DNA of 60,925 bases, the filler included, from Asterionella formosa (taxonomy: Eukaryota), in NCBI GenBank assembly GCA_002256025.1. It is 17 parts of 17 records of this genome, joined end to end, with 100 filler letters (N's around TTAATTAATTAA, not from the genome) between each part and the next. Parts side by side here need not be neighbours in the genome. Positions count along the whole stretch, not along the records: positions 25,179 to 28,673 come from NKIB01014109.1; 16 more parts are not named here. The stretch is one strand, 5' to 3'. Both the position numbers and the translations under genes were made by a program. Below the pieces are notes generated by a model, which was not told the origin of the DNA, made no database searches, and worked only from the letters and a program-made list of their open reading frames with translations. This document shows positions 1,776 through 53,427 of the stretch, in pieces (positions within the stretch are counted from its first letter, which is position 1; each line of letters opens with the position of its first letter).

Positions 1776-1789
1776 TTGAAAATGTGTTT

Positions 1790-6190: not shown

Positions 6191-6239
6191 GGAGACAGGC
6201 AGGTCCCGCTGTACTGCACAGACAAATCAAACCAGTGCT

Positions 6240-7099: not shown

Positions 7100-7619
7100 N
7101 NNNNNNNNNNNNNNNNNNNNNNNNNNNNNNNNNNNNNNNNNNNTTAATTAATTAANNNNNNNNNNNNNNNNNNNNNNNNNNNNNNNNNNNNNNNNNNNNG
7201 CAGGTACCTATTTGTCAACATTGTTTGGGTCAATCCATTCTTGTTCCCGCAAGACCAGCAGCAATTATCCCTTTACTTCCTCTCCTCCCAAGAACCTTCA
7301 TTTCTCTTTCACAATTGTCCTGATGTATGCAGAGAATTTTTAGTTCCCTTTTGATTTTTCAACTGGTTTTGATCCCTTTTGCATTCAAGTCAAGAAACAA
7401 GCTACTCATTCAGAAGGCTTCTATTTGTTTGCCCCCGCCCACTTGGCATTCTACCATTGCTTCAATAACAGTAAAATTGAAAACTGTGTGTAGATGAAAT
7501 GTGACTTCGTCTGCAAATAAAAACTATCATATTCCTATTATGCATCACAGGATTGTGATCTTCTGATCAATATTATTCGTTATATCACCTAATAATTTTG
7601 ATAAATGCCCTTGTAATTT

Positions 7620-8252
7620 AAATTGAAAATAAAATGTCAACAAGAACAAGTAGAATGTTTTTGTTTACAAGTTGATTGGCGAGATTGTCATGCTGGTGGT
7701 CGACGAAATGGATTTACTATTTACACAGCGCTGTGTGCAAAACCATTCCGAGTTCGAATGATTTCTTCTCTGTTAACTCTTAATTCAATGATTATGAAAA
7801 TAGGTTCACTGCACATGACGATTACTCAAAGATATAATGATCACTTGACCAAGCAACAATTGAAGACGTTATCGCAGACAATCATTCCACTTGTCATCGC
7901 TAGTATTTCGTTGTTGTTGTTGCAAAAATCGGAGTGATTACAGATGTAAATGACGAGCCAAATTACATTACCGGTACTTTAGCTGGTTGTATATTGAATT
8001 ATCATATGTTTTTTCTATTAGATTCCTGTATTTGAATTTCTTGGTGCTCCTCGAAAAGTCGGTGTCCGTGTCATCATCAATTGAGGTACAAGAGTCCTTC
8101 ATCATTGTGGTTTGCCGCTGGAAAAATTGGTACCCATCATATTGTCATTTGCTCGTTGGAACTGTCCGTTGCCTCAAGCAAACCTGCTTAGCGTGTGTGT
8201 ACGTACACTGTTGACTTGTGTAGATTATATTACACTGTGCTCTGTTCAACAA
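7620..8252. repeat. Dispersed non-coding blocks A (7620-7800), B (about 7990-8220) and C (8228-8252), shared with fragment 25179-28673
   Basis: A matches the reverse complement of 25179-25350. B matches 25500-25940 in the same orientation. C (TATTACACTGTGCTCTGTTyAACAA) matches 26581-26605. Confidence 0.8.
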
Positions 8253-9443
8253 TTACTACACTGGGTTACCATCACACCAGTTGGACCTCCACAAGCGCTG
8301 CCAAAAACTCTGCGTTTCCCTTCCACTGTTTTACATCATAGTCTTCTGGCCCTTTGACAGCTTTCCAAATAGCATTTCATGGATTTCATGCAAAGGATCA
8401 GTCAAAAAAGAAACGTGACTTACTTCCGTCGTTTACACTACTCGACTTTTTGTTTTCGGAAAAGAATATGAAGAAGCTTATGAAATCAATCGAAGATTCC
8501 TTTGAATACACTCAAATAACAGATGAATTTGAACAGATTCATAATACTCCAGAAAAAATAATGAAGCAAGTATGCCGATACAATAGTGGCAGAGATTGAA
8601 AAGAAGGAAAGATTGCTTTCGAAAGCAAGAGGAATCTCAAACATTTGTTCTTTGCGGATGAAGACTCTATTCCTACAGAGTCACAGTTCCATCCAGTGTC
8701 GTATTTTGCTCCTCATTCTCCTGAAATCGCTGATAATGAGGAAAAACTCAATGATTCTCATTCATTTGATGAACAAATTCATGCGATGAATGAAAATACC
8801 GGCGGAAATGTGGGAGACATCACTTCTGACGACAAATAGAAATGGTTGAAAAGTTGCAAAACCAAGAAATGTATCTCACTATTTGTCCAGAACATCAAGA
8901 TGAACACCATGAAAGCAGAGAAATTATTGCATTTCTTAAAGAAAAGCTATTCAGGAAAAAGTCTGCGCTAGATCAAGGCCTCGAATTCAAGAAGATCAAT
9001 GCAGACAGAGATGTGATGCTGGCTAAGGCAGTTGATGCACTGAGTCGGAAACGAAGCTTGAAGCACAAAATTGAATCTTTTTCCTAATTAGCTATACATG
9101 GTGGAAGAAAAAGAATTTCTTTGTAAAATCTTTGAGAACAATCCCGAAGGCAGCAAGCTACTTTTGTGAAGAGTCGGCATGTGATATGTGTAGAGTTGTT
9201 GTGCCAAATCAAAACTGCATTTTCCTTGAGTTGGCCGAAAACACATGGACAACTAAAATTGTGAAAAGATTTGTACACACATACCCCACAAGAAATATGC
9301 AATTACACCTCTGTATTTTATGGAGTCAAAGGTGGTATGAAAATCATCTTCAGATTTTAAAGATGTTGCAAATTGGCACCTTGAAACAATTGACTCTATG
9401 ATCTGTTGTTGGTTCTTGATTTTTGCTAGTGTAGATATTTTTG

Positions 9444-10045
9444 CTAATCAGTGCATGTGTCCATTTTGGTATTTGCCCATTTCTTCATTTGCTCTTGATC
9501 AAGAAAAGCAGTTTTTGTTGTTTCAGTGATATGTTTATGATCAGAGATGTTCTCTGGAATATCTGGTGATTTTCTTTCTTTAAAAATACATGTCCATTCT
9601 TCAGGGATAGTCCGATAATTGTACATTGATTCCAAAATGTACTTAAATATTACAAGTAATAATTGATGAAGAACCTCAAATGGAGTTGCACCAAATAATC
9701 CTTCTAAGTCACCACCAAAAATTGATTTATTAGTGCAGGCATAATAGGATTATGCGATATAACATGGCACCACTCGTTTGCTGTTGCGTATTTGCCATTA
9801 GATTGGGAGACACAATACTCAGGTGGGATACATGGTAATTTTCCATCGGGATATGCATTTTTGTCAAGAAATTTGTTTAAAAACTTTTTAACATCTGACA
9901 CTTTACAACGTTCACATCCGATAGCGGGATTTTCAGCATCTTCAGTTGAAACCAGGCAATCACGACATACATATCGTCGATATACTAATCCATTACCACA
10001 CCTGAAACCACAAATTTTGTTGTGCTTGTCAGAATGCATCACTAG
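9444..10045 (-). mobile_element. Plavaka transposase fragment, central region, frameshifted
   Basis: HSDKHNKICGFRCG...YVCRDCLVSTEDAENP, then in another frame FGGDLEGLFGATPFEVLHQLLLVIFKYILE. These match the GHDKLCG...CRxC and TPxxLHxLxLGxxK motifs of Plavaka transposases. Confidence 0.7.
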
Positions 10046-10053
10046 TGATCATT

Positions 10054-10527
10054 CCAATCTGGAAATAAACTTTGGTCATACCAAAACCATGAACCCAAAT
10101 ATCGTATGACTTGTTTGGATCGCTCTTCGAAAGGCGACAATAGAAATCCTGTAACAGAATGGAATAATTTGAGCCGACATAAGGACAAGTCGTCACCAGA
10201 TAACTTATTATTCATTTGTTTCCTCTCCAGATCACTGACTTCAATGTCTGGCAAAAGAGATACCAACTGCCATCCATCAACTTTTTTCCAATCTGGAAAT
10301 AAAATTTTGTTATACCAAGACCATGAACCCAAACATCGTATGACTTGTTTGGATCGCTCTTCGAAAGGCGACAATAGAAATCCTGTAACAGAATGGTATA
10401 ATTTGAGTCTATATAAGGACAAGTCTTCACCAGTAGATAACTTATTATTCATTTGTTGCTCCAGATCACTGACTTCAATGTCTGACAAAAGAGATACCGA
10501 TTGCCAGTCATCCATCAACTTTTTTCC
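10054..10527. repeat. Tandem duplication, 234-bp period, in frame (78 aa) within ORF 10042..10518
   Basis: CCAATCTGGAAATAAA starts at 10054 and 10288. The peptide WQxVSLLxDIEVSDLE...LFPDW occurs twice. Confidence 0.92.
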
Positions 10528-10999
10528 TTCATTCTAACGTTAAATTTAAGATTGTCAACAAAAACATATACTTGGAATGTTTCATTTGTTTATCAATACT
10601 AGGTGAACCATCACTGAAAACCTCTAGGGCGTAAAATAAACACCCTGTCTTCAACACTCCTTTTTCTGATGCAGGAGAATTGTTGAATGCATTTTCANNN
10701 NNNNNNNNNNNNNNNNNNNNNNNNNNNNNNNNNNNNNNNNNTTAATTAATTAANNNNNNNNNNNNNNNNNNNNNNNNNNNNNNNNNNNNNNNNNNNNCGT
10801 GATAATGACTGTGACCATGTATTTAGTAACTAGGTATGATATTATATATGCTTATATGTAGTATTGGCAAGGCAATCAGGGGGTAGTGGTTGTGTTCGTT
10901 CATGTATATAATTCATAGGCATAATGGTCATTCAGAAAATCTATTCTTATTTGCAAGTTCTACTAGTCGTAGTCAACAAGGTCAAGTCGTACATCTAAC

Positions 11000-11430
11000 C
11001 CGCGTATTACGTGAAGTGACCATCACATAAATAAGCCTAGTTGATTTTGAATGCATCACATGAATTAGTTGAAAACATCAAAATACGTAGTTGAATATAT
11101 CTATATATTATCTGAATACATCACCTTAAATATTTGATCAAAGTATCATGCATGCATTCCTGATCATCACTTTATTACGTCATCACCTTCACGTAATTAT
11201 TTGAAATACATCAAGTAATTATTTGCAATACTTCACGTAATTCTGTAATTTAGTTCACATTGCCTCATAATTTCGTTCACACAATTCTAGAATAAAGTTC
11301 ACTTAATATGTAAAATATGTTTACGTAATTTTATGGAGTTCATTCAACTAATTATCACAAGGTTGTTCAACTAATTATCTGAAGGCCATTCCACTATTTT
11401 TCTGAAGGTTGTTCAACTATTTTACTGTAG
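11000..11430. repeat. Degenerate short AT-rich repeats (TTCACGTAATT / GTTCAACTAATT), subterminal-repeat-like
   Basis: Many imperfect copies of these motifs. Confidence 0.5.
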
Positions 11431-11494
11431 GTAGTAATTCACCTAAATGAAAGAGTTTCATCAATGAAATAAAGCCTGCTCATTTGGAATGGCA

Positions 11495-12312
11495 TGCAAA
11501 TGCTCCTGCACTGAAAGGTTTTGCTGCAATGTCAATTGAATGTAGAGGAAGATCAGTGTGAGTTATCAGTAGCGTTGCTCATATAGCCGTCAAAATAGCG
11601 CAGTAATCTTACCAGAACAACTTTCATTGCGGACCTCATTGTCCCTGTTGTCAACAACAATGCGTGAGCTGACAAGCCATACTAGCATTTAGGTACGCAA
11701 CAAAAACACACTCACCATTCAACTGTATTGCAGAGTTCTTTTATTTGAGTCGAGGTGGCTGCTGGCACATAAAGTTTCGCATAGTCGTTCAATAATTCAG
11801 TAGAAATACAGCAGCAGGCAGCATGACAAACAGCATGTCAAAACACACTAACAACTCATGATTTACGGAGCCCTGTTATCATATGACATTAACACAGAAT
11901 CAGAAAGCAACAATACTCAATCCTGGATTTCATCCGAATGCTCCTGAATTGAAAGGGTTTGCTGCAATGTCAATTGAATGTAGAGGAAGATCAGTGTGAG
12001 TTATCAGTAGCGTTAATCTTACCTGAACAATTTTCATTCTGGACCTCATTTTCCCTGTTGACAACAACAATGCGTGAGCTGACAAGCCATACTAGCATTT
12101 AGATACACAAAAATACATATTAATCTAGCTGCTGAAGAGCCAGTAGGGGGTGATTGACTGTTGGCCGCATTGATTGGTTACTTTTTCACCATGCTAATTT
12201 TTGTGTTTGTGGAGCCTGCTGTGTGGCAAACTCCTGGCGCGGCCTGGATTCTCTCGTTGTACCACAACAACGTACATTCTACCAGAAAAACACCGGCGCG
12301 GTCTTGCTAAAT
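11495..12312. repeat. Dispersed repeat with an internal duplication (about 11495-11700 vs 11935-12110); also present at 52915-53424
   Basis: GCTGCAATGTCAATTGAATGTAGAGGAAGATCAGTGTGAGTTATCAGTAGC occurs three times in the window. 11815-12312 aligns by eye with 52915-53424. Confidence 0.9.
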
Positions 12313-12864
12313 GTTTCGTCCGGTCCAAATTCTGTATCTACAAGCGTGAATTGTTAGAATAGCATATTGTTACTCCTACTACTAGCTGACTATCAGCCAT
12401 TGTGCCTTTTTATGATACATATTTTATATATATGTACCACATCAGTACAGTAGACACTCCTTGATTTTCATTCAATGATGCAATTAAGTGATAGAAGGTG
12501 AAAGCTGATCAGTTTTTGCCTAGAAAAATACAGGCAACGAGCAACTACTAGATGTACTAGTAGTATAGTACTAGCTAGTACCGCTCACGAAAATAATGTT
12601 TCTTCCTGTTTGTGATCAATATCCCATCGATCCACACATTCTCGCATATGTTTTACTCGATGCCACCAGTCGAAACGATTGAGGTAATGAGTAGATATTG
12701 GCAGGACGCGCAGACGTTGGAGATATATAGAAATAACATCCTCTGCAAATGCATTGTTTCATAGATACGAAATTGGTTATCATTTACTAACAGCGAGGTA
12801 TATGTGTTACGGTTAGATCTCTTCCATTTCTCCTTCACACTGCATCATATTTCTCCGAACACTA

Positions 12865-13575
12865 CTACCCGTAGTAAGGTAGATGAACGTTTTCTTCTCT
12901 TGCAGCAGCATATCTTCTGTTCAGCTCCTCAGTATGGCAAGCTCGTTCCCTTATATTGAAAGCAGAGAAATTGCCTGATGTCTCAGCATAGCACTCAATG
13001 AAATATATCTTGAATCTTTTTTTATTGAGTCGCCTATGCTCGGGAATGTCACTGTCATGGAGATCCTCCATAGTCATCTGGTAGAATGCTTTATAGTTGT
13101 TGTTTGCCTTTAACATATCTTGGTGTTCTTCGGGAACTGTCAGGTAATCACGTTTCATAAGTTTTGTCATGGCTTCCATAACCAGAATAGCCATTCCTTG
13201 GCGCTTACAATTCATGAAATCCTTGTCCAACGATGAATTCCAGGTAACTTGCACCTGGTTCAAAGTAGTGGGTGTTTTAGTCGAACTTTTTGAGCGATTC
13301 GATAAGCTTTTAATAGAACTTCCTGACTTTCCATAAAGTTCATTTTCTGATGGTGTCACATTTCCTTCCATTGTTGGGAGCGAGGCCACATTGGGTGGCC
13401 GTGGGAAAGAACCATCAACACGAATTGGATTTCTTAAGGGAATGCTGCTTCTTTCAGTTGCTGGTGAAGTGCCCAAAAGATCGCTAATTGAAGAGGCTGT
13501 GGGAGGGATACAAGCGGTACTTGGAGTTTTTGCCTTCTCCAGGTCGTTTTGTACCCTAGTAATCACTGGTGGCAT
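12865..13575 (-). CDS. Hypothetical protein (236 aa), probably transposon-borne
   Basis: Intact ATG-TAG ORF with an S/T/P-rich N-half. It lies among repeats, downstream of a decayed ORF. No recognisable domain. Confidence 0.4.
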   Translation of the reverse strand: MPPVITRVQNDLEKAKTPSTACIPPTASSISDLLGTSPATERSSIPLRNPIRVDGSFPRPPNVASLPTMEGNVTPSENELYGKSGSSIKSLSNRSKSSTKTPTTLNQVQVTWNSSLDKDFMNCKRQGMAILVMEAMTKLMKRDYLTVPEEHQDMLKANNNYKAFYQMTMEDLHDSDIPEHRRLNKKRFKIYFIECYAETSGNFSAFNIRERACHTEELNRRYAAAREENVHLPYYG

Positions 13576-13664
13576 ATAAACAAGAACTTACCCGCATTAG
13601 AATTATGATTACATTACTAGTGTTAGCTAGTAAATGAGAATAATATTAATATTAATAATAACAA

Positions 13665-13870
13665 TTCATTTCTTACCTCCCATTTTGGTCACATTTGTAT
13701 CCTTCTTTTGCATATTCATGAACATAGATTCCAAAGCAATGCTGTTTGCAGACTTACGTAGGTGCTCGACTTAATCATAAATTGTATTGAACCTTGCATA
13801 ACCCTTTGTTTCCCACCCTCCATACCGTTTGCCAACTCCTCCATGGTTTGTATAGAGGCATTTCACCAAA
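13665..13870 (-). pseudogene. Decayed ORF with a YT...GW...G..RFN motif, putative Plavaka accessory protein
   Basis: Hand translation: LVKCLYTNHGGVGKRYGGWETKGYARFNTIYD*VEHLRKS... The link to Plavaka elements is from my recollection of diatom repeat proteins and is unverified. Confidence 0.4.
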
Positions 13871-15228
13871 ACACCTGAACCACATCTAAGATGCCATTTA
13901 CGGCACTTTTTCGAATTTATGTCTAAAGTGACGTATTTATGCTACTTTTCTAAAAACTTATGCTACTTTTTTGGAATTTATTTGGGTCAAACCAAAATTT
14001 ATGTGTTCTCAAACAAAATTTACTTCACTTATCGAATAATTATGTGATCAAACCAATAATTATGTGTGCTCGCAACAATACTTTCTTACCAACTAGCCGT
14101 TGCTACAGTGTGATGAAGAAATTATGCTGCTTTGCGGCTATATTATGCTGGTTTCAACACATAACTAAATTAAGAGTTCCCAATATCGATTCAATTATTA
14201 TATTTTCCGCTTTCAAATTATTCTTTGGTATCAACTCCCAATGAATGCCGGTAACACATTTGTTGGCACTGATAGTACCTGCATCCATGACTTCANNNNN
14301 NNNNNNNNNNNNNNNNNNNNNNNNNNNNNNNNNNNNNNNTTAATTAATTAANNNNNNNNNNNNNNNNNNNNNNNNNNNNNNNNNNNNNNNNNNNNCTGTC
14401 GTATACAGTATTGCTTTCTTTATTTATGAGCTGGGATTGTAGGAATGCCACATTTCGTATCCTTTCTTATTATTACTTATTCTTTGTTGCGTTAGGGCAG
14501 TCGTTTTAATGAACAGACCAGGTTGATGGGCGCCCTCGTTTTGGCCACTGAGAATATTTGGATCGCACCCTGTGTATACAGTATGTATGTAGAAGCAAAT
14601 GCAAGCAAATTCCATAAAGTTCAGCAGAGTATGTAGTATTTTCTGACCGTTAAAGTGGACGAATATTTACGAGGAATTTTAACCGCCATGACAAGCAATA
14701 TCCGTTGAAATGGAGACAACTTGTATCGTCCCTTGGATTTCAGGGCGGCTGGGAGGACATCTGGCCGATCCCCGCCACTTTCTTTCTAGCCTCCTCGGCG
14801 GGAGATGCGTTCGCGGATTCCGTTTAGGATTGTTCTTTCGGCTCGAGCGTAATTTCAAGTATGTACCGGTAAACGAAGAACCAACTACGGTAACATTAGC
14901 ATGGGCGGCCAAAGGACACCACTGCCAAGGTACCGTCCTACAGTTGGCACCGGCCGAGCTGAAAGTGCAGCTTGCTCATAATTGTTTCCCTATCTCATGC
15001 TTTGAGGAATAGCCAAACGTGGCGCCTGAAAGAGTACCGGTTTATTAATCCATTACCGCCCTCCACAATAATTCCTGCTCTTGGGTCATTGCAATTGGAA
15101 ATAGTAAAGGTTCGGGGACCTCCATTACCGGTAGTCCTCAAGAGTTATATTGTTCCTGGAACTCCGCCTGTTGACAGCTATCGTGAAGGCTCGTTGCCAA
15201 ACTGTTCATATTTGCTGTGCTTGCTGCA

Positions 15229-25178: not shown

Positions 25179-25940
25179 GTTCATAATCATTCAATTAAGA
25201 GTTTACAGGAGAGAAGAAACCATTCGAACTTGTAATGTTTCCGCACACAGCGCACAAAGTATATCCGTTTCGTCCACTTCAGCATGACAATCTCGCCAAT
25301 CAACCCATAAACAAACACATTCTACTTGTTCTCGTTGAAATTTTCAATTCTCACATGATACTACATCTACTATTGAGATTCAGCATAGAAGGAGATACGA
25401 AAATGTGCGTAACAGACTACTGTCCACATAGCTATAGTTATAGAATGATTCTGATTAGAACGCATTTCATTTTCATATCGCTCGCTCGTTTCTGCACTTG
25501 AATTAACTATTGAACTTGTCCGCATCTTTGATACCATCAAGAGAGCGAAAGCAAGTGGCTCTTTTCATTGTTGTTTGCTCGTAGGAAGAATTTGATATCT
25601 GTATCGTCATTTGCTTGTTGGAATGGTCCGTTGCCTCAAACTTGCTTGGCGTGTGCGTGCACACACTGTCGACTTGTTTTCAATGGTATGTTGTTCTTGT
25701 ATTCACTGTTGAACTTGTCCGTATCTTTGTTACCATCAATAGAGCGACAAGTGGGTCTCTTCATTGTTGTTTGCTCCTGGAAAAGTCGGTTTCCGTGTCA
25801 TCCTCATCAATAGAGAGACAAGTTCTTTCGTTGGAAAAATTGGTACACGTGGTATCATCATTCGCTCGTTGGAACCACTGTCCGTTGCCTCAAACCTGAT
25901 TAGCGTTTGAGTACCGGTATGTGCACCGTCGACTTTTGTA
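25179..25940. repeat. Dispersed block A (inverted) and block B (two tandem degenerate copies), shared with 7620-8220
   Basis: TGAACTTGTCCG at about 25511 and 25709, and TCCGTTGCCTCAAAC twice. GAAAAGTCGGT.TCCGTGTCATC is shared with about 8055. Confidence 0.8.
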
Positions 25941-26604
25941 CATTACAGGCGGAGTGACTTCGCTACTAAATTGCGTGATATAATAATATACCCTGTAGCA
26001 CAATGCAGAATACAGTTGCTTCCCAATCATCTCATCATAATTGATAAGATGATACTGTGATATCATGATAAGGTTACATCGATGCATACATCACCAAAGT
26101 ATGATGGGTAATAATGAATAAAGTGCATCACAGAACTATGATACACTGATCATAAAATTATGATGATTTTATAAAATGTTTATGATATAATTTTGATCAA
26201 AATATGATTATGTTAAAATAATACAATGATAATAAAATACGATAAAATATGTACACAAGTGTTACCAAGACATCATAGAAAATAAATCAAGCAATCATAA
26301 AGTATGTTAATTAGTATATGTGTTTGTCGTTTAATGTATACAGTTAGAGTCAACAGTTAATATGATAGTATTATACAGTGCATAGGATCTAAGTATACGG
26401 ATGCGTTGATATGTACATCACTATAATATGATTTGTGATATGGATTGATGCATATCACATACCGGTATCCTCAACAACCGGCCATCACGTTCATTGTCGT
26501 GTCGTCTTCCCTTGTTTTAGCTATATACCGGTATATGCCAGCATGTGTATTGTGTAAACACTACGCTGGCGGAACATGCATATTACACTGTGCTCTGTTT
26601 AACA

Positions 26605-26780
26605 AGGAAGTGTAGCAACTGTTGGCAGATCAATAGGCGAAATCACTGGAGAAACAGATGTAATAGGACCCTCTGTGATTGGGCTAGGAGAAACGACTGG
26701 AGATACAGAAGAAACTGGGGGTGCATCAGGAGGAAGTGTAGCAAGTGTTGTTCGATCAATAGGCGAAATCACTGGAGAAA
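26605..26780 (-). pseudogene. Pro/Ser/Thr-rich mucin-like coding fragment with a 126-bp internal repeat
   Basis: SPVISPIDRTTLATLPP...SPVISPIDLPTVATLP. AGGAAGTGTAGCAA starts at 26605 and 26731. Confidence 0.55.
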
Positions 26781-27501
26781 GCAATGAATTTACCAGGGAA
26801 GAGAAGCTTCTCTGTAATAAATTTAGATCCGGTGTAGAGGAACGGAGTGCCAATGAGGAGGAAGAACAAGAACAACGGGTTGATTCTCAACACAGTCGAC
26901 AAGAGTTCGAGACCAATACCAAGCCAAACACTTGTGAGAATAATAATGGCGGGAAGGTAGAGAAGATTTGATCTGAATTGGTCTTCTTTCAATGTGACAG
27001 TGCAAATTCCAGTGTCGATCTAGCATTTTGCAGATGTTGAGACTGCAAACTTCGATCCAGTTTCCTTGAGCTCCGTCTTCAATGCGTCAAACTCAGCATC
27101 TGGCATCATCGGTTCACCTTTCAAGTATGCCTGCATAGCGGCGAAATATGTGGCTTCCTTTCGGTTCATGACAACCATGTCAGATCCGTTCCATTGCAAA
27201 TCTTCCTTCAATAGGTCAAACTCGTCATCCTTGAGCATTTGCCTTCCAGTGGCATAGTAGGACTGAAGCGCGTCCAGAAAGATACGCTCCTTTTCGGCTA
27301 CTGTGAGACGAATGAGTTCCCCACTTTCCGGATCGACGACACAGTATTCCTCGTCAGGAATGCATTCTTCTTCCTGCAAGTTAGTCTCAAAGAATCGTCC
27401 AGACTTGGCGTCGTAAGCGATTTCTCTCGTTCCGCTCGTAATGGTGATCTTTTTGTCGCTTCCTTCTTCGGCCATTAAAAGTGGACCAGCAACACGACCA
27501 G
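26780..27501 (-). pseudogene. PGRL1: PGR5-like protein 1 fragment: truncated at both ends, with an in-frame TAG at 27020-27022
   Basis: FLDALQSYYATGRQMLKDDEFDLLKEDLQWNGS...AYLKGEPMMPDAEFDALKTELKETGSKFAV. The same frame continues past the stop as KC*IDTGICTVTLKEDQFRSNLLYLP plus two hydrophobic helices. The signal peptide and C-terminal CxxC domain are missing. Confidence 0.9.
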
Positions 27502-27554
27502 CTGTTGTCGTTGTCTTCCTTAAAGTTCGATGATCTTAAATTCATTTACCGGTA

Positions 27555-28025
27555 CTGTCCCGCTGTAGTAGCAGCAGTCATAGACATATGGTGTTCTATT
27601 GCTTGCTTATTACTCCGACTACCGGTACCGCTTTTCAGTTTCACGATCATACAATCCTAAAACTATCATGATTTACTATGGTGTGATATTGCTTGCTTAT
27701 TACTCCGACTACCGCTTTTCAGTTTCAAGATCATACAATCCTAAAACTATGATAATTTACTGTCCCACTGCAGTGTGGTAGCAACAGTTCTGAACATATG
27801 GTTTTCTATTTGTTTTTAGTTTTACGATCATATGATCCTAAAACTATGATGATTTACTGTCCTACTATATTGCAACAGTCATGAACATATGGTGTTCTTT
27901 TGGATTTTTGTTTTACGATCATACGATCCTAAAACTATGATGATTTACTGTCCCACTTAATTTGCAACAGTCATGAACATATGGTGTTCTGTTGCTAGTT
28001 TACTACTCCGACTACCCCCAGTATA
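27555..28025. repeat. Tandem array of about 80-95-bp units (4-5 imperfect copies); single copy at 47672-47800 on the opposite strand
   Basis: Recurrent GATCATACAATCCTAAAACTATGATGATTTACTGTCC...GCAACAGTCATGAACATATGGTGTTCT. Confidence 0.9.
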
Positions 28026-28499
28026 AGCAATACTTTATTTTTTTGACTTAGGGCTGAAATACAGGAACCTTAAACAAAAAGAATTTAATTGACAATCTGC
28101 TGAGAAAATAGGACCTAACTCTTTGGTTCAGCAAGATTTCGTCAACCACGCACTTGCAGTTAATCTCTGGTACTTGTACAGGTACCTGGTACCTGGTACC
28201 AAGAGGACTGGTACCAGTTCCACCAGGTAGTGAGGGTACACATAGACACCTGGTACAAGTTCTACGTGGGTGTTCATTGATTTTCTTATCCTATACACAA
28301 ACGCACCCACGCATGGCACACACTGAACTCCTCCTACCTAGTACAGTAAGAACCAGGTAACAGTAATTAATCAACAGCCAAGGAGATCATGGTGAGCAAT
28401 CCTGCACATCGATACAGATATATATAGAGTTGGGGTTATGTCAAATATATCGGAATTCAATAATGAGAGAACTCGACTAACACCCATTCTATACTTTGA

Positions 28500-28673
28500 T
28501 GTCAGTTCAGGAAATGAGTTATACATAAGGATTAATTAATAAGCTCATATATTCAACAAATACTACTACTTCTAGTTAGATACTTCACTTTGAATTCAAA
28601 AAGAGTCGAATTAGAAGACAACAAACATGGCAATGTATTCAAGGGTTCCTGTGATTCCTTTGATCAAAGACTA
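28500..28673 (+). mobile_element. 5' internal end of the gypsy-like family seen at 19660-20860
   Basis: TTAGATACTTCACTTTGAATTCAAAAAGAGT...AACATGGCAATGTATTCAAGGGTTCCTG matches the reverse complement of 20600-20690. Confidence 0.75.
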
Positions 28674-33479: not shown

Positions 33480-35750
33480 TATTTGAAGACTGTATTACCT
33501 TAGCTAGGGCTGCGCATTCTGATCAGAAAAATAAATCATAAGGTACAGTTGTTTGACATTCTTGTTTTTGTATACCATAATTGGGAAGGTCTACGAGAAG
33601 AGGATTAAGTTGGACAGACGTTCACCAATGCTTTTGGTAACAGCATTACAGGCAGATGCGTTCCCAAAAGTTGAATTGGTAATGACTTATGACAAGAATG
33701 GGACAAAGAAAAAAATGAAAAGTTCCCACACATGATCTGGAGAATGTGGAACAGGTAGTACTATACTGCTTTCATTAGTTAATGGAGGTAGCAAGGAGGT
33801 TAACACTTGATGGAGCAGAGTGGTTTGAATTTTATCATGATACGCGTGGGCAGGCTCGCTCAGCTTGGGATTTGATGTCTGAGAAAGTGCTGGTGGAGTT
33901 AACAGAACAGAGAATACTTTTCGTGATACATTCCGGTCCTTTGTTGCATCACTTGTGGATGAAACAGCAGCGCATCTCACTTTTTTGGATTACTCATATT
34001 CCACTACTAAGCCTAGATCAATGTTGGTGATGTAGTTGTTTGGGTGTGTGCAGATTTGTTGCTTGTATGCTAAAGATTTACCTAGTACTACAGAGAGAGG
34101 GGACAAAAGACCAATTGCCATTACAGAGGAGGAAAGAAAACTATAGTTTATAATATGATGCCAGAAGAGCGGAAGACAAGGTTTACAAGAAGCATTTTGC
34201 GAGTTTCAGGTATGAGTCAAACTTAAATGACGATTTATTTCAACCGTTTGTGAGCTTTGGAGAGAGCAAGGAACTTCAAAGGTAGCTGTACTGGTAAGCA
34301 AAGTAGAGAAAAAAACTAATGATTCTAATCTTTGTAACAAAAGGTACCTGAACAATTTATCGATCCTTATGGGGATAGTTACAGGCAAAGGAACGGCAAT
34401 AATAATTATAAAAATGAAGATAATTTCAGCCTGGGTCAAGGAAACGGCTTGAGGAGTGGTGACTTCTACCATTCTAATAACAATGAAAACAACAATGGTG
34501 GCTGCAGAGGAAGTCCATGAAATCGCTCAAATACAATCTCCAATAATAACAACGACGGGGATCATTACAGCAGAAAAAAAATGATAATTATCTGGCAGAT
34601 GTGGGAATCAGGAATGACACGAAAAAACAAGAGAATTCATAGGTAAAGATCACCATATGTGTGATGAGATTTTTATATATGAAAATTTTGATGTAAATGA
34701 AAATTTTGCAAATGAAATTTTTTCAATGCGTAACAATGAAATCGACCAAGAAGCTGAAAAACAATAATGAAAATGTACCATGCACAATTATGCAAATACA
34801 AACCAATTCAAGAAAAATAAATGAAGAAATCTCTAATGATATTATTTGATCCAGGAAGTACACGATCATTAGTGAAAACATAACTTTGACTATTGGAGCA
34901 GTGCAAATTTGTGGGCTACGACATTGAGTGGCAAAACAGGGACAAACCGTTCAGTAAAACTTCAAAAAAAAATTCCAGAGTTTACGCAATCTCTGAAATA
35001 AGGAAAAAGGTAAAATTTTCGTTTTTGATAATTCTAATGAGTGCGATGATGCAATTGTTGGAAGAGATTGGTTGCAAGAGTTAAAAACTGATATTTGCTA
35101 TTCCGATAAAACAATGAAAATGGAAGGACGCCGAGATTAAATGAAAAAAGGGTAGAAACCGAGTTTTTACATCAATAATTATCATTCTGATGAGGAACTA
35201 GTGGAGAAGATGTATTTGAGAGAGATTAAGGAGGCTAAAAATGAGCGAATTCCTGTGGATAACGTGATTGTCCAACAAAAATCTAAACAAAAGTCAAAAA
35301 ATGCAATTGAGAACGACCTTTCAAGGATTAGAAACTCGTTTTTATGGAAAATTAAAGAAAGTTGTAGGAAAAAATCAATTGGAAATGAAGGATGGTACAA
35401 AACCAGTACGCTGTAAAACCTTTCTGGAACCTCACCAACATTCAGAAGTTACACCATGTGGAAATTTTCGGTACAAACGTCTACCAATGGGAGCTTCGCA
35501 AGTACCAGGCCTTTTTCAAGAAATCATGGAACCTATTTTAAAAGATTTACCGGATGTCAAAATATTTTTTGATGACATTGGCAGATTTTCTCAGGATTAT
35601 TTGTCACCTATGAAAACAATTGCAACTGTTCTACACCGTCTACAGGCAAATGAATTTACAGTCAATCCACTTAAATCCGAATGGGCAGTTAAAGAAACAG
35701 ATTGGCTTGGTTATTGGCTTCGTCTGCAAATAATAATATCGCACTTATAA
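33480..35750 (+). mobile_element. Decayed Ty3/gypsy retrotransposon (gag, protease and RT pieces)
   Basis: ILFDPGSTRSLV (aspartic protease) near 34840. RYKRLPMG...FQEIM...IFFDDI...VNPLKSEWAVKETDWLGY (RT). Confidence 0.85.
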
Positions 35751-35958
35751 GATCAGGGGTATCATGCAATAACTGGCACAGAATTTTTCTGTTCATGATA
35801 CATATTTCGTTATATGTATGATAAATGCATACTATGAAAGTGAACAGGCTAAGCTTACNNNNNNNNNNNNNNNNNNNNNNNNNNNNNNNNNNNNNNNNNN
35901 NNTTAATTAATTAANNNNNNNNNNNNNNNNNNNNNNNNNNNNNNNNNNNNNNNNNNNN

Positions 35959-37301
35959 TCCCTTAACGGACGGATCATGTGTTCCACTGGCATCTCCCTT
36001 CTCTGGCCCCCCAATTATTGATGGTTCATCTTCATTCAAACTGTAGGGAAGCTTAGATCGCACCTTAACATCCTCCTCACGGTCTGAGCATTCATCATCG
36101 GTGACAGTGTTAACATTAAAACATTTTAGATCTATTGTGTTCCTTCGTTGATCCTATAATGGCCTCGTAGATCTGATATCTGGTGCACCCTGGTGCAGTC
36201 TGTACAGTTGCCACATTTGTGCTTGGATCCAGCCAGATAGATCGCACATATTTATCATTACCCCAGTGGAGAGTTACCCTGTCCTCGTAGGTGGCGCACC
36301 ATGCTCCCTTAAGGCCTTGCTTAAGGCACTTATTAGTCTCCTGACTCCAATGTTGAGGAGAAAACATTCTAAAGGGGGCCGCCGGGGCAAAATAAGTTCC
36401 TGGAATACGAAAAATGTGAATACACCCCAGGTTGTCCTCTATGCGCCACTTCACCGTGCCTTTGAGAAGCACTGGGATGGGACCGCCCACACCATTTATA
36501 TTTATTTAGGGCCAGGTCCATCAGCGAATCCACATCAAAATCCACCCGTCCATCGTGATACTGATCCTGCTGACCAATCATGTAATCATGGAACACTTTA
36601 TCCTCCACAGCCTCGTATGCTGTAAACAGATTTGTCAGTAGGTCAGAAGAAGTTTCCCCACGAGACATAAGTGCGTCACGTTGCACACGGACATGGAGGT
36701 TAAACTTCTCAATGTTGCAGTCCACCGATAACATGTTTTCATCCAACACGCTGAGGGTACGGCGAATGGTAGCCACCGTGGATCGTGTATCGACCGTGCA
36801 TCTCGTAATGAGAAGTTTCAAGAATGCAGCACCACTTGCCACTATGTGTGTAGGGGCTGTAGGTGACGTAAGACGATAGGCAGATGAGTCTGTAGAAACC
36901 TTGAGCAAGGCCTCCATTGAAAGTGAATCGTAAATGCACGTAAACAACTGCGCACAGTTCTGTGCGTCACACGTCTGGGAATGAACATGTGTGGCTGCGT
37001 GAGCAACCACATTTGCCATGATGACCCTTACATATTCGGTGATTAGGTTTCGCCCAACGTTGTGGTCATCAGGGACCGTGAGGATGGAGGCACATCCAAA
37101 TGCGTCGGCTCGTTGCTGCAAGGCTTGAAGGAAAAGGCGGAGGCCTCCAGTTTCACCATCGAAGGGATGATTGAGTTTTTCGGTTGCAGACTTGTACAAT
37201 TTCATCCCTTCATTTGAGTTGTAATCAACGGGATCAGGATTTGCGAGAGCTGGGGTTAGAGCAAAGACGAAAGCCGCATGGGCGTTGGGAGCTTGAGCCA
37301 T
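35959..37301 (-). mobile_element. Ty1/copia (CoDi-like) element: gag joined by a deletion to the protease region
   Basis: Gag from ATG 37301: FALTPALANPDPVDYNSNEGMKLYKSATEKL...DSLMDLALNKYK. It is followed out of frame by GTVKWRIEDNLGCIHIFRIPGTYFAP...FSPQHW. Confidence 0.8.
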
Positions 37302-38317
37302 GTTAGGTTCTAGACCACGAAGTCGAGAGGATCGACGAAGAATGATAGACGATAGTCTACAATACGACGGTTGTCGTGTTGCGCAGGGGAAGCGTGAGGG
37401 AAACCAGCAAATATTCAAACGAATAAATGCAGTTTGACAATAACCAAAGTAAGACGCAAATCAATAACAGATTAGTCTAGTTTCAATTATATGTCTCATA
37501 ATCATTGGGCATTGTCTGCAAAAGCGCGCTAGCCTGTCTAACATGCACCAAACAGCAGCAAGACGAGAAGACCCTCATCATTCAGATATATCTGACTGTG
37601 GAATGAACACATCGCCCAAAAACCCTTATTATGCCAATAGAAGAATCGCTACACCGCAGCATGACTCGCCATCAACCAACTGCCAAAAGAGACCCAACCA
37701 CATCCGCTCGGACCCAATCCGGCAGCAAGTTACAAATCGAATCGTCAATACAAAAATGAAGGGGGGACCCGGAAACCCATCAGATACTTTAATACCACAG
37801 CCTCACCATCACACGTACGTCAAACATTTGAATACCCAATGGCACTGCACCCCTGGCACCAGGGAGCAAGGGCACATGAGAAATGCAGCATAATTCTCAC
37901 AGTAGGCACACCACATGAGGCCATATGGCCAGGTATTTTAGAACTACCCTTGATTGCAAATGAGACCATTGAACTTCCTACCATACATTATACCTGCAAA
38001 ACTGTGGGATCGCTTTCTAGGAATATCACCAGTCAGTCTCACGTTATTCTCCAATATAATGAAGTGGGATCCCACTAAACGATGGACTGCTCAACAGGCA
38101 AGCTAGTGGATTTATTTTGATGAATTGCCCACGCCAACACCAGACAATGCCATGCCAAGATTCCAGGACAGAAAATAGACAAACAATTTGCTAATATTTA
38201 AAATGAAATATAAATGACTCGAATCAACACCAGCAGATACTTGGTATTTAACTACTGGCAGCTTTAAGAAAGAAAATTATTATTATGCATGTTCACAAAT
38301 CATCAGAGCAAAAATGA

Positions 38318-39798: not shown

Positions 39799-40261
39799 TG
39801 TTGGCAACCGCACTCCTGACGATTCGTCATCAATTCCCATCTTGAGTACCCTTTCAAACCTATCCGCTTTAAAGCTTGTTGAAATGGTCCGTACTCCTTC
39901 CCGCGGGCTGGGTCTCTCTTCACGTAGACTCTTACGTGCTCGTAGTACTACCTAGTACCACTTACTTTCTCTCTTGTCTCTGCTTCTAGCCTTCCTGATA
40001 GATAGACTAATTGACCTTCCTGTCAATTAACACACTGTTTCCTTGGTTGATAATCTAAAACTCAAATTAAATTATAAGCTAAACTAAATGTTTCCTTTCC
40101 ATGCATCTTTGCTTCCCGCAAAGTCGTTCTAAGACTCTCTTCGAGTTTCCACTCAATCTTTGATCTTGTTAGACAGCTGATTGACGTGGCAATGCAATAT
40201 TCGACTCGTTCGATTACAATCGAGTCCACAATCCTTGTGACTCGGGCTAATATTCTTGACA
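39799..40261 (-). repeat. LTR of the copia element (463 bp)
   Basis: On the - strand: polypurine GGGGAGGA, then TGT...ACA termini, followed by TTTGA-TGGTACCG (PBS-like) and gag. Confidence 0.7.
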
Positions 40262-43029: not shown

Positions 43030-43129
43030 NNNNNNNNNNNNNNNNNNNNNNNNNNNNNNNNNNNNNNNNNNNNTTAATTAATTAANNNNNNNNNNNNNNN
43101 NNNNNNNNNNNNNNNNNNNNNNNNNNNNN

Positions 43130-46612: not shown

Positions 46613-47671
46613 NNNNNNNNNNNNNNNNNNNNNNNNNNNNNNNNNNNNNNNNNNNNTTAATTAATTAANNNNNNNNNNNNNNNNNNNNNNNNNNNNNNNN
46701 NNNNNNNNNNNNACGCAATTCCATCGTATCCTCTTGCTTCACTTACCACAAATCAATGCAACTGATGCATAAGTCTGTAATAGTAACTTGTCAGTAAGCC
46801 AAATTCTTGAATAAGTAAGTTTCGGGTATCCAATGTTGTCGAATAAAACTTACCAGTTCATTTTTGTCAGCTTAAATTTGAGAGAAGGTAAACGTTTTGT
46901 CAGTTTTGTTCCAACAGAAGTGAATAGGTCCAACGAGCGACAAGAGAACTTACGCAATTTGGTTTTGTTTTACATTGGTGCTCCCCGACAAGCGAAACGA
47001 GCTGTTGAATCAACTGAGAAAAAAGGAAATGTGGCTGCGTTTAGTTAACAATTTGTTGTTGTGCTGCCTGCCTCCCAACGATTGTCATCCAAGTACCACA
47101 TTGATGGCTTCATTACCTTAAACATTCTCCATCCTTCGAATGCGCAATGTGTCGAAGCCACAATGTTTTCTGTTATGTATTGCGAAAAGTTTCTTTTCTT
47201 GTCATGTGCTTTACTACGACATATCTTTTCATGAAGCAGCAGGCATTGTTTGTTAACATGACAGAACGATATCAAAAATATATATGCCATGAATATAGTA
47301 ATAAAATTTGTAAATATATATAGTTATATATACATTTATAAAATTCCAAGGCGCTCTCGATATGGAACATCTGATATGGTTGAGATGATCATACTTGCAT
47401 ATACATAATTCGAAAATACTCAATGCACTATATGTCCATTGTTTTCCACGACTACGTGTACCGGAATTGTTTCTGAAATTTGTTTGCATCGATATTTTCT
47501 ACGTCCGTTGAAACTAATTATTTAGACCATTCAATTGCCGCAAGGGTTTTGGTAGCAAATTGTTTAAGCCCCTTTTGTGGGCAGGAGCTCTTCATGTGTA
47601 CCGGTACATCATATGACAATAACAATATATGATATATATACACAGAGTACGACCAGTAGCAGGTAGTAAGT

Positions 47672-47994
47672 GATATACTGGGGGTAGTCGGAGTAGTACC
47701 GGTAAACTAGGAACAGAACACCATATGTTCAGGACTGTTGCTACTGCAGTGGGACAGTAAATCATCATAGTATCAGGATTGTATAATCGTATAATTGAAA
47801 ACAAGATATGCTATTACTCAAACTCGGTTCTGATTTTGTATATGATAATGTAAATAGCACCATTTGTCATGTGGTACTATCATCATATCTAGACAGCGTA
47901 AAATATTATTTGTAGTGGCTGATGATTCATTTCATTGTAACTAGCAACACCTGAATTTAAGATCATCGAACTTTAAGGAAGACAACGACAACAG
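47672..47994. repeat. Non-coding blocks shared with fragment 25179-28673: one tandem-array unit and an exact 42-bp block
   Basis: 47953-47994 (GAATTTAAGATCATCGAACTTTAAGGAAGACAACGACAACAG) is the exact reverse complement of 27502-27543. Confidence 0.92.
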
Positions 47995-48229
47995 TTATCT
48001 AGTAGTACAATGTCTTCAAGAAACCATAAAGAGGTTCATGGAAACAAGCGACATGTGGCAAATACTGCCGGTAAGGAACAAAGAAGCAAGTTCCAAAATG
48101 AGTTAACAGGCGATTATCCAACGCAACCCAATTGGCGATTGGGAGATGTTGGGGGTAATACCCCACCGTCGATGGGACACCATCAGCTACTAGAACAAAG
48201 GATCCCGTAATTGGCTGATACTGACAGCG

Positions 48230-49399
48230 ATGATGACGTTTCTACTTCATATATTGATACAAGAAAAATGGCTCCTGTCGATGATACCATTAAAAACTCC
48301 CGGATGCAGATGGATGACATGGAACCAAGACAAATTGAAACGACCCAGTAAGCGTGTCAACGGACAATTACATCGATTAAAGCATGACATTTTAACAAGG
48401 TCATATGAAACAAGGCAGTTTGCCTTGGCACGAAAAATTGTTTTTGTAAGTGATTCATTACATACAGAAAACAAACAAAAGAAGATGAGTAAAGTAAACA
48501 TCAATGTAACTGAGGGTATTTCAACAGAAATTGATTTCGAAGGAATGATTCCGAATACAATGATGTTGCCTAGTAGTAGGTCGCCTGAAAATTTGGGAAT
48601 ATCGCCTACCAAGATCCATTCACCAGCCCTTCCTGTTAAAGTTCAATTTTCTGCTTCATCATCAAATGGTCTATGGACTATAGCAGGTGTCCCTAATAAG
48701 ATTGGGCATGTATCACGGAGTAAGGATGCACCCTTGTCTCAATTGGTTCATCCTGATTTACCGAACAAGGGGGCCAACTATGTAAAGAGCATAGCGAATT
48801 CAGCAATAGAAATAGCAAGAATTAAAAGTCTTGAAGATGGGGTTGGGCCTGTTTCCATTGTAAGGATTGACTTTTATTATCATGTTAAAATTGAAAGTTA
48901 CGTTCCCGGCCAAACTACTATTTTCAGATGCCATCCGAAATGGAATAATGATTCAAAGGCAGGAATCTCTGGTCGTGAATGGTTTGACTGGGTCGAAGTG
49001 AACTCGGATAAGGGAGATGGATCAAGTTCCTTCACAGTTCCTGCAAAACTACTTCTTTGGGGAAATGTTATTTTCTCCAACACATCAACCATTTTCTTAG
49101 CCTGTATTCGTTCCTTGAAAGTTCAACTGAAATGAAAATTCATAAACGTATGTTTTTTGCAAGAGGAGACACCTTATGCAATGATACAACTGAATTGAGC
49201 GTTGTTGAATTTCATAACATGATACTTTCGGCAGCATTTGTTGTTCCTGCTTTGAAACCACAGGAATCAAGGAAATCTCTGAAACACACCGCAAGAAGTT
49301 TTGGAACAGATACGGAAAGATAATTTTTATGTTGTAATGCCTCCACGTAATTTATGGAAATCAATCAGGTTGGACCAAAAACTAACAAGCAAACGTTGA
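48230..49399 (+). mobile_element. Plavaka transposase C-terminal region, frameshifted
   Basis: IFRCHPKW...EWFDWVEV...VPAKLLLWG, then SVVEFHNMILSAAFVVP...FYVVMPPRNLW, typical of the C-terminus of Plavaka-type transposases. Confidence 0.65.
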
Positions 49400-49449
49400 T
49401 AAATATATAAGAATAATATAAATGATAATGGTAACAATATAGTTTCACA

Positions 49450-50193
49450 TACTAAATTGGTTATTATGAGGTTTTCACAAACTACAATTTCCTAAGAAAT
49501 GATTATCCAATGGTCCATTATTTCTTCTTTTTAACTCCCAAAGAACCTAAGATGGTCCTTCTCGTTTCTTGTTTCGTCCGAAATTTTGCTTCTCCACTTT
49601 TCAACTGCAGTTCGATATGAGTCTGTAAACTTTTTCAAGTAGATTCCAGAAGGGCTATCATCAGATACAAAATTTTCTTTCAACATTTTGTCAATTTTGA
49701 TGCATCCAGAAATTTGGCCAAGAGGTGCATGATTATACCATTTGAAGGGAGTAAGTTTTTCATTACTTTATTGTATCATGTATTTTACGTAGACAACTTC
49801 ATCCTTCTTGAAAGAAGAGTTGCAAGGAACTCGTCCAAATACTTCGTTCAACATTTTTAAATCTAAATAGGATGTCAAAATTTTGTCGATACAAAATTGA
49901 AGAACAGTTATTTCCAACTGAAACATATCCTCTCGAGAATTTATCGTTGTCACTTGAGGCCAAACTGTTCCAAGATGAAAGTATGTTGACTTGGTTGGTG
50001 GGTCAGATGTAATGGATAAGAAATCGTCTGTTCGATCTGTTGCTACCACCTGACGTTTTAAAACTTTCCAGGACTCAGTCTCCAAACGGAAATGTGTCCG
50101 TTTGCCAAGAAATTTGGTTTTGCCATTCCTTTCTAATTGCAATAGAGTTTCCAACACTTTCACAATTGTAAAAGTTCCACATGACCATCTACT
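49450..50193 (-). pseudogene. Unidentified stop-interrupted ORF convergent with the Plavaka fragment
   Basis: 131-aa ORF whose frame continues beyond TAA 49768 with further stops. No recognisable domain. Confidence 0.35.
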
Positions 50194-50338
50194 NNNNNNN
50201 NNNNNNNNNNNNNNNNNNNNNNNNNNNNNNNNNNNNNTTAATTAATTAANNNNNNNNNNNNNNNNNNNNNNNNNNNNNNNNNNNNNNNNNNNNTTGAGAA
50301 CACAACTGGTCTAGCTGTTTTCCGGAAGCACCAGCCAA

Positions 50339-53424: not shown

Positions 53425-53427
53425 TTG

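What the first reader, a model, noticed from the sequence alone, without database searches (positions are those of the whole stretch)
25179..28025. Candidate 'Pack-Plavaka': a DNA transposon family that captured a PGRL1 photosynthesis gene fragment
Seen in sequence: the PGRL1 piece (27501-26780, - strand) lacks its signal peptide and C-terminal CxxC domain and has an internal TAG. Its upstream edge abuts a 42-bp block identical to 47953-47994, plus a repeat array also present at 47672-47800. In that other fragment the same block lies 15 bp before an ORF start and upstream of a Plavaka transposase C-terminus. On the other side of PGRL1, blocks A/B/C recur at 7620-8252, in a fragment carrying the central Plavaka transposase motifs. 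Both flanks therefore belong to Plavaka-bearing repeats, and copies carry different cargo next to the same blocks. Established: Pack-MULEs, Pack-CACTAs and Helitrons capture gene fragments in plants. Inference: this is equivalent capture by a Plavaka-type family in a diatom, which I do not recall being described. The element leader could drive a truncated 151-aa PGRL1 ORF or be a source of small RNAs against the real gene.
Basis: partly seen in the sequence, partly recalled or inferred. Interest (0 to 1): 0.82.

Follow-up and report, generated by a model that had tools for sequence, protein, structure and literature searches.

The report
Transposon spreads spliced photosynthesis gene copy
A cut-and-paste transposon of a diatom picked up a spliced, front-truncated copy of the photosynthesis gene PGRL1 in place of its own transposase and spread it widely while the real gene stayed single and intact, which gives a natural test of whether silencing such transposons spills over onto an important host gene.

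Summary
The PGRL1 piece sits in a TIR DNA transposon: 23-bp TIRs (338 hits), 2-bp target duplications in 3 of 3 two-ended elements read, and a Plavaka-type transposase. The intact parent gene is single-copy and has an 85-nt intron. The assembly holds 191 exactly spliced junctions against 1 intron-bearing one, so the cargo came from mRNA, unlike Pack-MULE-type DNA capture. It joins the transposase 5' leader 15 nt before the ATG (87 such junctions, 99 native ones) and replaces the transposase. Six PGRL1 contigs reach a TIR, with six different flanks; none reaches both. The window copy is a later, truncated form with a second host fragment of about 170 bp. Copies evolve near-neutrally with CpG decay. 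Chimeric contigs occur in independent DNA and in two lake metatranscriptomes of one study. The closest precedent is hAT capture of histone H3 transcript in fungi, so this is a new variant of a known kind. The scan had noted fragments of this system on other contigs of this genome without linking cargo, termini and transposase.

The parts
25179..26605 (.). Left arm of the element, cut by the contig end about 380 bp short of the left TIR
   Evidence: 92% to native element C4775 (L130 9276-7844), whose left TIR is at 9655
26606..26776 (-). Second captured host fragment, about 1.4 units of a 126-bp Pro/Ser/Thr-rich coding repeat, in the same sense as PGRL1 but out of frame; 1-nt microhomology to the element at 26605
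   Evidence: 97.6% over 168 nt between a copy and the ORF of C7664 (L197); paralogue on C12839; more than 30 contigs carry it
26777..26780 (-). 4-nt microhomology shared by PGRL1 and the second cargo's donor at their junction
26777..27502 (-). Processed PGRL1 cDNA, positions 112-831 of the parent CDS; 3.1% from the C12690 allele; one in-frame 6-nt duplication
27262..27263 (-). Exon-exon junction where the parent's 85-nt GT-AG intron is exactly absent
   Evidence: 191 spliced hits against 1 intron-bearing hit
27020..27475 (-). 151-aa ORF from Met47 to the premature TAG (Y198*, shared by 19 of 27 distinct copies covering the site); no targeting peptide, no TM helices
27502..27544 (-). Transposase 5' leader; the cDNA is fused at a 1-nt (G) microhomology, 15 nt upstream of the native ATG
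   Evidence: 87 PGRL1 junctions against 99 native ones
27553..28025 (.). Tandem array of about 91-bp units upstream of the leader, part of the element's right arm
   Evidence: present in native copies
28025..28026 (.). Private truncation of this copy: other copies continue about 1.7 kb further to the right TIR; 28026-28673 is unrelated repeat DNA
46713..50193 (+). Separate contig: PGRL1-free, internally deleted family member (right arm, leader, native ORF start at 48010, transposase C-terminus)
7508..10697 (.). Separate contig: rearranged PGRL1-free member with the left TIR at 7508 and transposase core fragments at 9444-10533 (minus strand)

Best explanation
This is a non-autonomous derivative of a Plavaka-type (CMCT-clade) cut-and-paste transposon that carries a processed PGRL1 transcript. 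SHOWN: the native element (at least 8.6 kb, 23-bp TIRs, 2-bp target duplication) has a transposase read inward from the right arm and a convergent second gene. In one founder copy, about 5 kb from the transposase 5' leader to within gene 2 was replaced by spliced PGRL1 cDNA 112-1055 (to 62 nt past the stop), with 1-nt and 2-nt microhomologies and no poly(A) tail. Derivatives occur at several different insertion sites and in 87 or more contigs. Later deletions, a second host-gene capture and shuffling with another repeat family made subfamilies; the window copy is one of them. INFERRED: capture happened by template switching onto PGRL1 cDNA or mRNA while a break or excision gap inside the element was repaired, with reverse transcriptase from the genome's retroelements. 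Amplification used transposase supplied in trans. The transposase promoter still drives chimeric leader-PGRL1 RNA. The copies are CpG-methylated passengers that decay near-neutrally.
For: Single intact parent with signal peptide, 85-nt intron and a syntaxin neighbour. 191 spliced junctions against 1. 48 of 48 distinct fetched copies spanning the site are exactly spliced. One 5' breakpoint in 87 contigs and one 3' breakpoint in all 8 listed long-form rows; K62T in 41/48 and K63R in 43/48 copies. TIR 338 hits, control 0. TSD TT/TT, AT/AT and AC/AC. The family transposase is 92% identical to a stretch that hits PF18759 over cut-off and 74% to another at 63 bits. Six PGRL1 contigs reach a TIR, with six different flanks. 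Independent DNA run X11 bridges the leader junction by about 180/98 nt. RNA run X15 has a 791-nt contig over 26725-27531, and RNA depth is 0 at 26300-26604 where DNA depth is high. 58 synonymous among 202 changes against 55 expected; CpG sites hit 48/86 against 42/327. Precedent for transcript capture by a TIR element: PMC6710886.
Against: No contig holds a PGRL1-bearing element with both TIRs, so its TSD was not read directly. The assembly is fragmented and partly redundant, so 87 and 191 are contig counts, not copy numbers. Microhomologies of 1-2 nt can arise by chance. No intermediate separates direct cDNA capture from capture of an earlier retrocopy. Nonsense changes are fewer than neutral (5 against 10.9, P=0.024), and 2 of 2 full-length long-form copies keep an open frame. 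The RNA contigs carry only 29 nt of leader (the tool's bridging rule asks for 31), come from one study and show no strand. Right arms of PGRL1 copies do not form one supported clade. The termini CGT..ACG match neither fungal PlavakaA nor PlavakaB.
Confidence: 0.8

Rival explanations
1. Two-step origin: a LINE or LTR element first made an ordinary 5'-truncated PGRL1 retrocopy elsewhere, and the transposon then captured it at the DNA level by gap filling. The end product is the same; only the capture step differs.
For: 5' truncation is typical of retrocopies (recalled). Pack-TIR gap filling uses microhomologies with a median of 2 bp, and a captured ARF6 retrogene is mentioned (PMC8277862, passages).
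Against: No free retrocopy was seen among the loci inspected; all lie against element or repeat sequence (not all 191 were inspected). No flanking DNA or poly(A) of an intermediate site at either junction.
Confidence: 0.25
2. Canonical target-primed retroposition of PGRL1 mRNA straight into an element copy, with a large target-site deletion.
For: Intron loss, 5' truncation and a 3' end close to a possible mRNA end: an RNA contig stops about 2 nt from the 3' breakpoint (weak, may be a graph branch).
Against: No poly(A) tract, no target duplication and no T-rich priming site; 5 kb of element is replaced.
Confidence: 0.1
3. The cargo is kept because it does something: chimeric RNA or an untargeted PGRL1 protein regulates the parent, or PGRL1 homology softens silencing of the element.
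For: PGRL1 leader junctions are nearly as many as native ones (87 against 99). Chimeric RNA contigs reach about a quarter of the parent-type depth in X16 (388 against 1544). Stop deficit. Open long-form frames in the genome and in public clusters. Three CpGs are lost in the parent allele relative to the copies (unpolarised). Conflict model: bioRxiv 777037 (abstract).
Against: Synonymous and non-synonymous changes are as neutral (P=0.33). 30 of 65 copies have a stop or frameshift. The main RNA path in X15 has a 28-nt deletion. CpG decay implies the copies were silenced. Short non-autonomous derivatives often outnumber their masters without benefit (recalled). The maize abstract reports no copy-number gain from capture.
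Confidence: 0.15
4. Assembly chimera, in-situ decay of a PGRL1 gene, or segmental/tandem duplication.
For: Fragmented assembly; some contigs are near-duplicates; tandem structures exist in one subfamily.
Against: Identical junction in 87 contigs that differ by about 1-3%; distinct TIR flanks; junction present in an independent DNA run; intact parent in host context.
Confidence: 0.03

Closest known systems
hAT transduplication of histone H3 transcript in Dothideomycete fungi (Pseudocercospora fijiensis, Pyrenophora tritici-repentis; PMC6710886, passages read)
   Same: A TIR DNA transposon captured an intron-less transcript of a single-copy important gene and amplified it to tens or hundreds of copies; the parent stayed intact.
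   Different: Here the carrier is Plavaka-type, the host a diatom and the cargo a plastid-targeted photosynthesis gene. The cDNA replaces the transposase and sits behind its leader. Copies are young (median 1.2% from their majority), decay at CpG rather than by RIP, took up a second cargo and appear in RNA.
Pack-TIRs of animals (PMC8277862, passages read); Pack-MULE and Pack-CACTA of plants (search listings; review PMC13317346, passages)
   Same: Host sequence between TIRs, short microhomologies at breakpoints, multicopy spread, serial chimeric cargo.
   Different: These are described as genomic-DNA captures, and the animal survey discarded intronless cargo by design. Here the cargo is spliced.
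Plavaka transposons (Pfam PF18759; PlavakaA/B, PMC12730594, passages read; red-algal giant Plavaka with accessory genes, bioRxiv 2025.02.11.637652, passages read)
   Same: PF18759 transposase, C(2)C motif, 2-bp TSD, accessory gene and internal tandem array.
   Different: Termini are CGT..ACG, not TGT..ACA or CATCA..TGATG. The known passengers are old accessory genes, not a recent multi-copy host retro-fragment.
Processed pseudogenes and LTR-mediated retrocopies (PMC5131818, search listing only)
   Same: Exact intron loss and 5' truncation.
   Different: No poly(A), no LTRs; amplified by DNA transposition from one founder.

Membership tests
Plavaka (CMCT clade) | Transposase matching PF18759 | tested here: met
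   C14504 hit (37 bits, cut-off 26.3) lies in a stretch 92% identical to the family element; C12973 (63 bits) is 74% identical; P0191 (54% identity) carries PF18759. Single broken ORFs of C4775 scored only E=0.17.
Plavaka (CMCT clade) | First two catalytic Asp and C(2)C motif | tested here: met
   Read by eye in translations of family copies; assigning catalytic roles rests on recall.
Plavaka (CMCT clade) | H(3-4)H motif and final catalytic Glu | tested here: inconclusive
   This region is deleted in all family copies fetched; relative P0191 has H(3)H but ends before the Glu.
Plavaka (CMCT clade) | 2- or 3-bp TSD | tested here: met
   TT/TT, AC/AC and AT/AT (outer TIR of C4775) in 3 of 3 elements with both ends read; none of the three carries PGRL1, and C899 has a different interior.
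PlavakaA / PlavakaB of fungi | Termini TGT..ACA or CATCA..TGATG | tested here: not met
   Termini are CGT..ACG; not filed under A or B. The paper's supplementary termini figure was not read.
Plavaka (CMCT clade) | Phylogenetic placement among CMCT transposases | not tested
   No reference set at hand.
Pack-TYPE TIR elements | Non-autonomous TIR element with host gene fragment, multicopy | tested here: met
   six contigs link cargo to one TIR
Pack-TYPE TIR elements | Cargo enclosed by both TIRs and a TSD in one copy | tested here: inconclusive
   No fetched contig spans a whole PGRL1-bearing copy.
Pack-TYPE TIR elements | Cargo taken from genomic DNA (introns kept) | tested here: not met
   191 spliced against 1 intron-bearing junction.
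Processed retrocopy | Exact intron loss | tested here: met
   48 of 48
Processed retrocopy (LINE type) | Poly(A) tail and own target duplication | tested here: not met
   None at the 3' junction in any long-form row.
Helitron or LTR carrier | Helitron ends or LTRs instead of TIR with 2-bp TSD | tested here: not met
   TIRs, 2-bp TSD and a DDE-type transposase were found; no Helitron or LTR search was run separately.
PGRL1 | Homology to named PGR5-like proteins; bipartite targeting peptide, hydrophobic pair, C-terminal CxxC pairs | tested here: met
   Atlas top hit 'putative PGR5-like protein', 0.98, diatom cluster (automatic name); 63-79% to diatom homologues; anatomy. Pfam (on the window fragment) and NCBIfam and PDB (on a full-length relative) gave no name; the expected anatomy is recalled.

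The most novel reading that the evidence does not exclude
The transposon holds a photosynthesis gene hostage. By carrying PGRL1 behind its own promoter at roughly a hundred loci, the element produces chimeric RNA at a sizeable fraction of the parent's level. Host silencing of the element then feeds back on PGRL1 and cyclic electron flow, which favours the cargo-bearing lineage; the family repeatedly captures highly expressed mRNAs in sense by RNA-templated repair.
Probability: 0.15. Interest if true: 0.87.

Novelty: new variant of a known kind. Interest (0 to 1): 0.63.

Why it matters
It shows RNA-derived gene capture by a DNA transposon outside fungi, in a Plavaka-type element of a diatom. 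The case is young enough to read the donor, both breakpoints, cargo-free sister elements and later captures. One dosage-sensitive photosynthesis gene faces about 190 methylation-scarred copies in the assembly, some apparently transcribed in wild lake populations, so the capture and epigenetic-conflict model becomes directly testable in an alga. Practical point: such copies inflate PGRL1 counts and expression estimates in diatom genomes and metatranscriptomes. No report of it turned up in five searches of the held library, which lacks most subscription papers.

Tried and rejected
(1) Position 28025 as an element terminus: rejected, other copies continue to a TIR; it is a private truncation. (2) A TIR variant shared by the 4 PGRL1-linked right ends, tried as a counter of PGRL1 elements (56 hits): not diagnostic; most of the 48 ends read have another subterminal type, although 46 distinct flanks confirm dispersed transposition of the TIR family. 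(3) Right-arm tree: PGRL1 arms are clustered but not one supported clade; row L130 was mislabelled PGRL1 by a fuzzy match and is native; L068 carries PGRL1 but was labelled unknown. (4) Searches used a splice that was off by 2 nt; one search is discarded and redone; cDNA positions past 351 read 2 too high. (5) Pfam on single ORFs of the window and C4775 gave no Plavaka hit over cut-off, except the unrelated window ORF 1765-2463. (6) Gene 2 as an Ulp1-like protease: a catalytic-Cys-like motif by eye only; Pfam and Atlas gave no support. (7) The bacterial promoter scan is uninformative. (8) A third two-ended element (C3540): the right end was not in the stretch read. (9) Contig depths are not copy numbers or expression levels and are used only for presence and a rough junction ratio. 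Only 4 of 24 listed runs were laid. (10) Scan look-ups by words and by sequence found nothing. (11) A wider catalogue of cargo in the 99 native-junction elements was not made. (12) The profile search with P0191 found long relatives but added nothing on the cargo.

Full report
Setting. The window is a string of unrelated contigs of about 3.5 kb separated by N linkers. The finding is contig G000:C14109 of a fragmented 68-Mb, 15,436-contig assembly. The host is a diatom by protein similarity, and the runs that hold the stretch are mostly freshwater.

The parent gene. A search with the PGRL1 piece gave 41 matches among 40 scored of 280 candidates. One contig, C12690, holds an intact gene: ATG, a diatom-type bipartite targeting peptide (by eye), an 85-nt GT-AG intron, two C-terminal CxxC motifs and a convergent syntaxin-6-like neighbour. 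Its 5' end is single-copy (1 of 1 candidate), and the exon-intron junction occurs once in the assembly. The name PGRL1 rests on an automatic Atlas label (0.98) and recalled anatomy; Pfam (window fragment), NCBIfam and PDB (full-length relative P0131) gave no name.

The cargo is spliced. The exon-exon junction occurs 191 times. Of 65 distinct fetched copies (103 alignments before removing contained ones), 48 span the site and all 48 are exactly spliced. Intron 20-mers occur only in the parent among fetched loci. Copies that keep their 5' end start at CDS position 112. The longest form runs to 62 nt past the stop and joins the element with no poly(A). Copies differ from the C12690 allele by a median of 3.3% (1.8-4.9%, n=52) but from their own majority by 1.2%. 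Three of the shared amino-acid differences (R40, E50, E99) also stand in a full-length, signal-bearing protein from another source (P0131), so part of the gap is allelic and the capture is young.

The carrier. Following shared flanks led to PGRL1-free members with 23-bp TIRs; the pattern has 338 exact hits, control 0. All three elements with both ends read have 2-bp duplications: TT (in frame within a Harbinger-like ORF, identified by eye), AC and AT. The longest member, C4775 (8.6 kb between its inner TIRs, itself internally deleted), has a broken transposase read inward from the right arm and a convergent second gene. The transposase region is 92% identical to a stretch that exceeds the PF18759 cut-off and 74% identical to a 63-bit hit; a 54% identical public protein carries PF18759. 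The termini CGT..ACG fit neither fungal PlavakaA nor PlavakaB (PMC12730594, passages; supplement not read). I therefore call it Plavaka-type and do not file it under A or B.

The capture. Mapped on C4775, the cDNA replaces positions 2506-7517: the whole transposase from 15 nt before its ATG and most of gene 2. Junction microhomologies are 1 nt (5') and 2 nt (3'). The leader is joined to PGRL1 in 87 places and to the native ORF in 99. Four PGRL1 contigs reach the right TIR and two the left, with six different flanks; none reaches both. The founder was about 5.6 kb, inferred from separate contigs. The simplest reading is one capture by template switching onto cDNA during repair of a gap in the element, then spread by transposase in trans. 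A prior free retrocopy cannot be excluded.

Later history. The window form replaced PGRL1's 3' third and part of the left arm with about 170 bp of a Pro/Ser/Thr-rich host ORF (97.6% to C7664; 4-nt and 1-nt microhomologies; same sense as the leader). Other subfamilies end at cDNA 434 or 449, or keep only about 255-434 behind a block from a second repeat family; 18 of 20 further spliced-junction contigs sampled show or fit that last form. Part of the 191 therefore rides in patchwork derivatives. The window copy has also lost its right arm beyond 28025.

Function. Of 202 distinct post-capture substitutions, 58 are synonymous against 55.2 expected under a CpG-aware neutral model (P=0.33). 30 of 65 copies have a stop or frameshift. 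CpG positions are hit 48 of 86 times against 42 of 327 for other C/G, as expected for methylated repeats; DNMT5-dependent TE methylation is known in a diatom (PMC9998398, abstract). Against pure neutrality: 5 new stops against 10.9 expected (P=0.024; the common Y198* is not counted), and both full-length long-form copies keep an open frame, which would encode a nearly mature PGRL1 without targeting signal.

Independent data (4 of 24 listed runs laid, all contigs). DNA run X11, of another study, bridges the leader junction by about 180 and 98 nt. RNA run X15 has one 791-nt contig from 52 nt inside the second cargo through PGRL1 to 29 nt of leader. In X16 the chimeric and parent-type 5' contigs have depths 388 and 1544, and the native leader-transposase junction also appears. 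RNA depth is zero at 26300-26604 and from 28008, where DNA depth is high, which argues against DNA carry-over. Limits: both RNA runs are of one study, 29 nt is under the tool's 31-nt bridging rule, strand is unknown, and the X15 path carries a 28-nt deletion.

Comparison. The closest case is hAT capture of histone H3 transcript, amplified to 784 copies in P. fijiensis (PMC6710886, passages). Pack-TIR surveys show the same microhomologies but excluded intronless cargo (PMC8277862, passages). Known Plavaka passengers are old accessory genes. Searches for Plavaka with diatom (4 papers, 2 listed, neither on diatoms by title), for PGRL1 with transposon, pseudogene and captured (0) and three broader ones (titles and abstract starts only) showed no such report. 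Earlier notes of this scan saw pieces on other contigs: one found no sign of a transposon carrier, one recognised intron loss, others described the element. The link between cargo, termini and transposase was made here from my own calls before I read them.

Verdict. Real; a new variant of a known kind; interest 0.63. The structure and RNA origin are well supported, the capture mechanism is inferred, and any effect on the host gene is untested.

Noticed in passing
window-wide; e.g. 27620-27627, and in-frame inside PGRL1 copies at cDNA 232 and 357-359: TACCGGTA occurs 18 times in the window against 0.8 expected from base composition, with TACC(A/T)GGTA 11 times against 0.5. It appears as 6-nt insertions in some copies, probably excision footprints of an active TA-targeting transposon.
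   Followed up: partly
L130:273-1066 (G000:C4775): A second, outer right TIR encloses about 790 bp of foreign DNA (LINE-like by eye), and only the outer TIR gives a matching 2-bp duplication: possible capture of flanking DNA by a new terminus.
   Followed up: partly
L130:6083-7477 (minus); window 49768-50193: Convergent second gene of the element with an Ulp1-like catalytic motif by eye; no Pfam or Atlas support.
   Followed up: partly
window 10798-14295 and 50294-53771; L159, L163, L031: A second repeat family (ORF at 12865-13587, 65-bp and 90-bp units) is recombined with the PGRL1-bearing element in several abundant subfamilies. Public protein P0133 reads through such a junction into PGRL1.
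   Followed up: partly
L197 (G000:C7664) and L216 (G000:C12839): Host family of Pro/Ser/Thr-repeat proteins with a Met/Lys/Gly-rich C-terminal part, probably cell-surface or cell-wall; donor of the second cargo; no NCBIfam name for the C7664 ORF.
   Followed up: partly
window 1765-2463 (minus): Fragment of a different Plavaka family (PF18759, E=8.6e-11); similar DNA lies inside the TIR-bounded element C899, so several Plavaka interiors share or nest within these termini.
   Followed up: partly
parent C12690 versus copies, cDNA 119, 504, 528: Three CpGs present in the copies are absent in the parent allele, and three the other way round: 6 of 23 fixed differences, unpolarised; could hint at methylation of the parent's captured part.
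   Followed up: partly
window 43130-46612 vs 57450-60925: Two contigs share about 1.2 kb at 69% identity plus smaller blocks: another repeat family, not examined.
   Followed up: no
window 35268-37460 and 40153-43073: Decayed LTR-retrotransposon gag/pol fragments (by eye); observed only.
   Followed up: no
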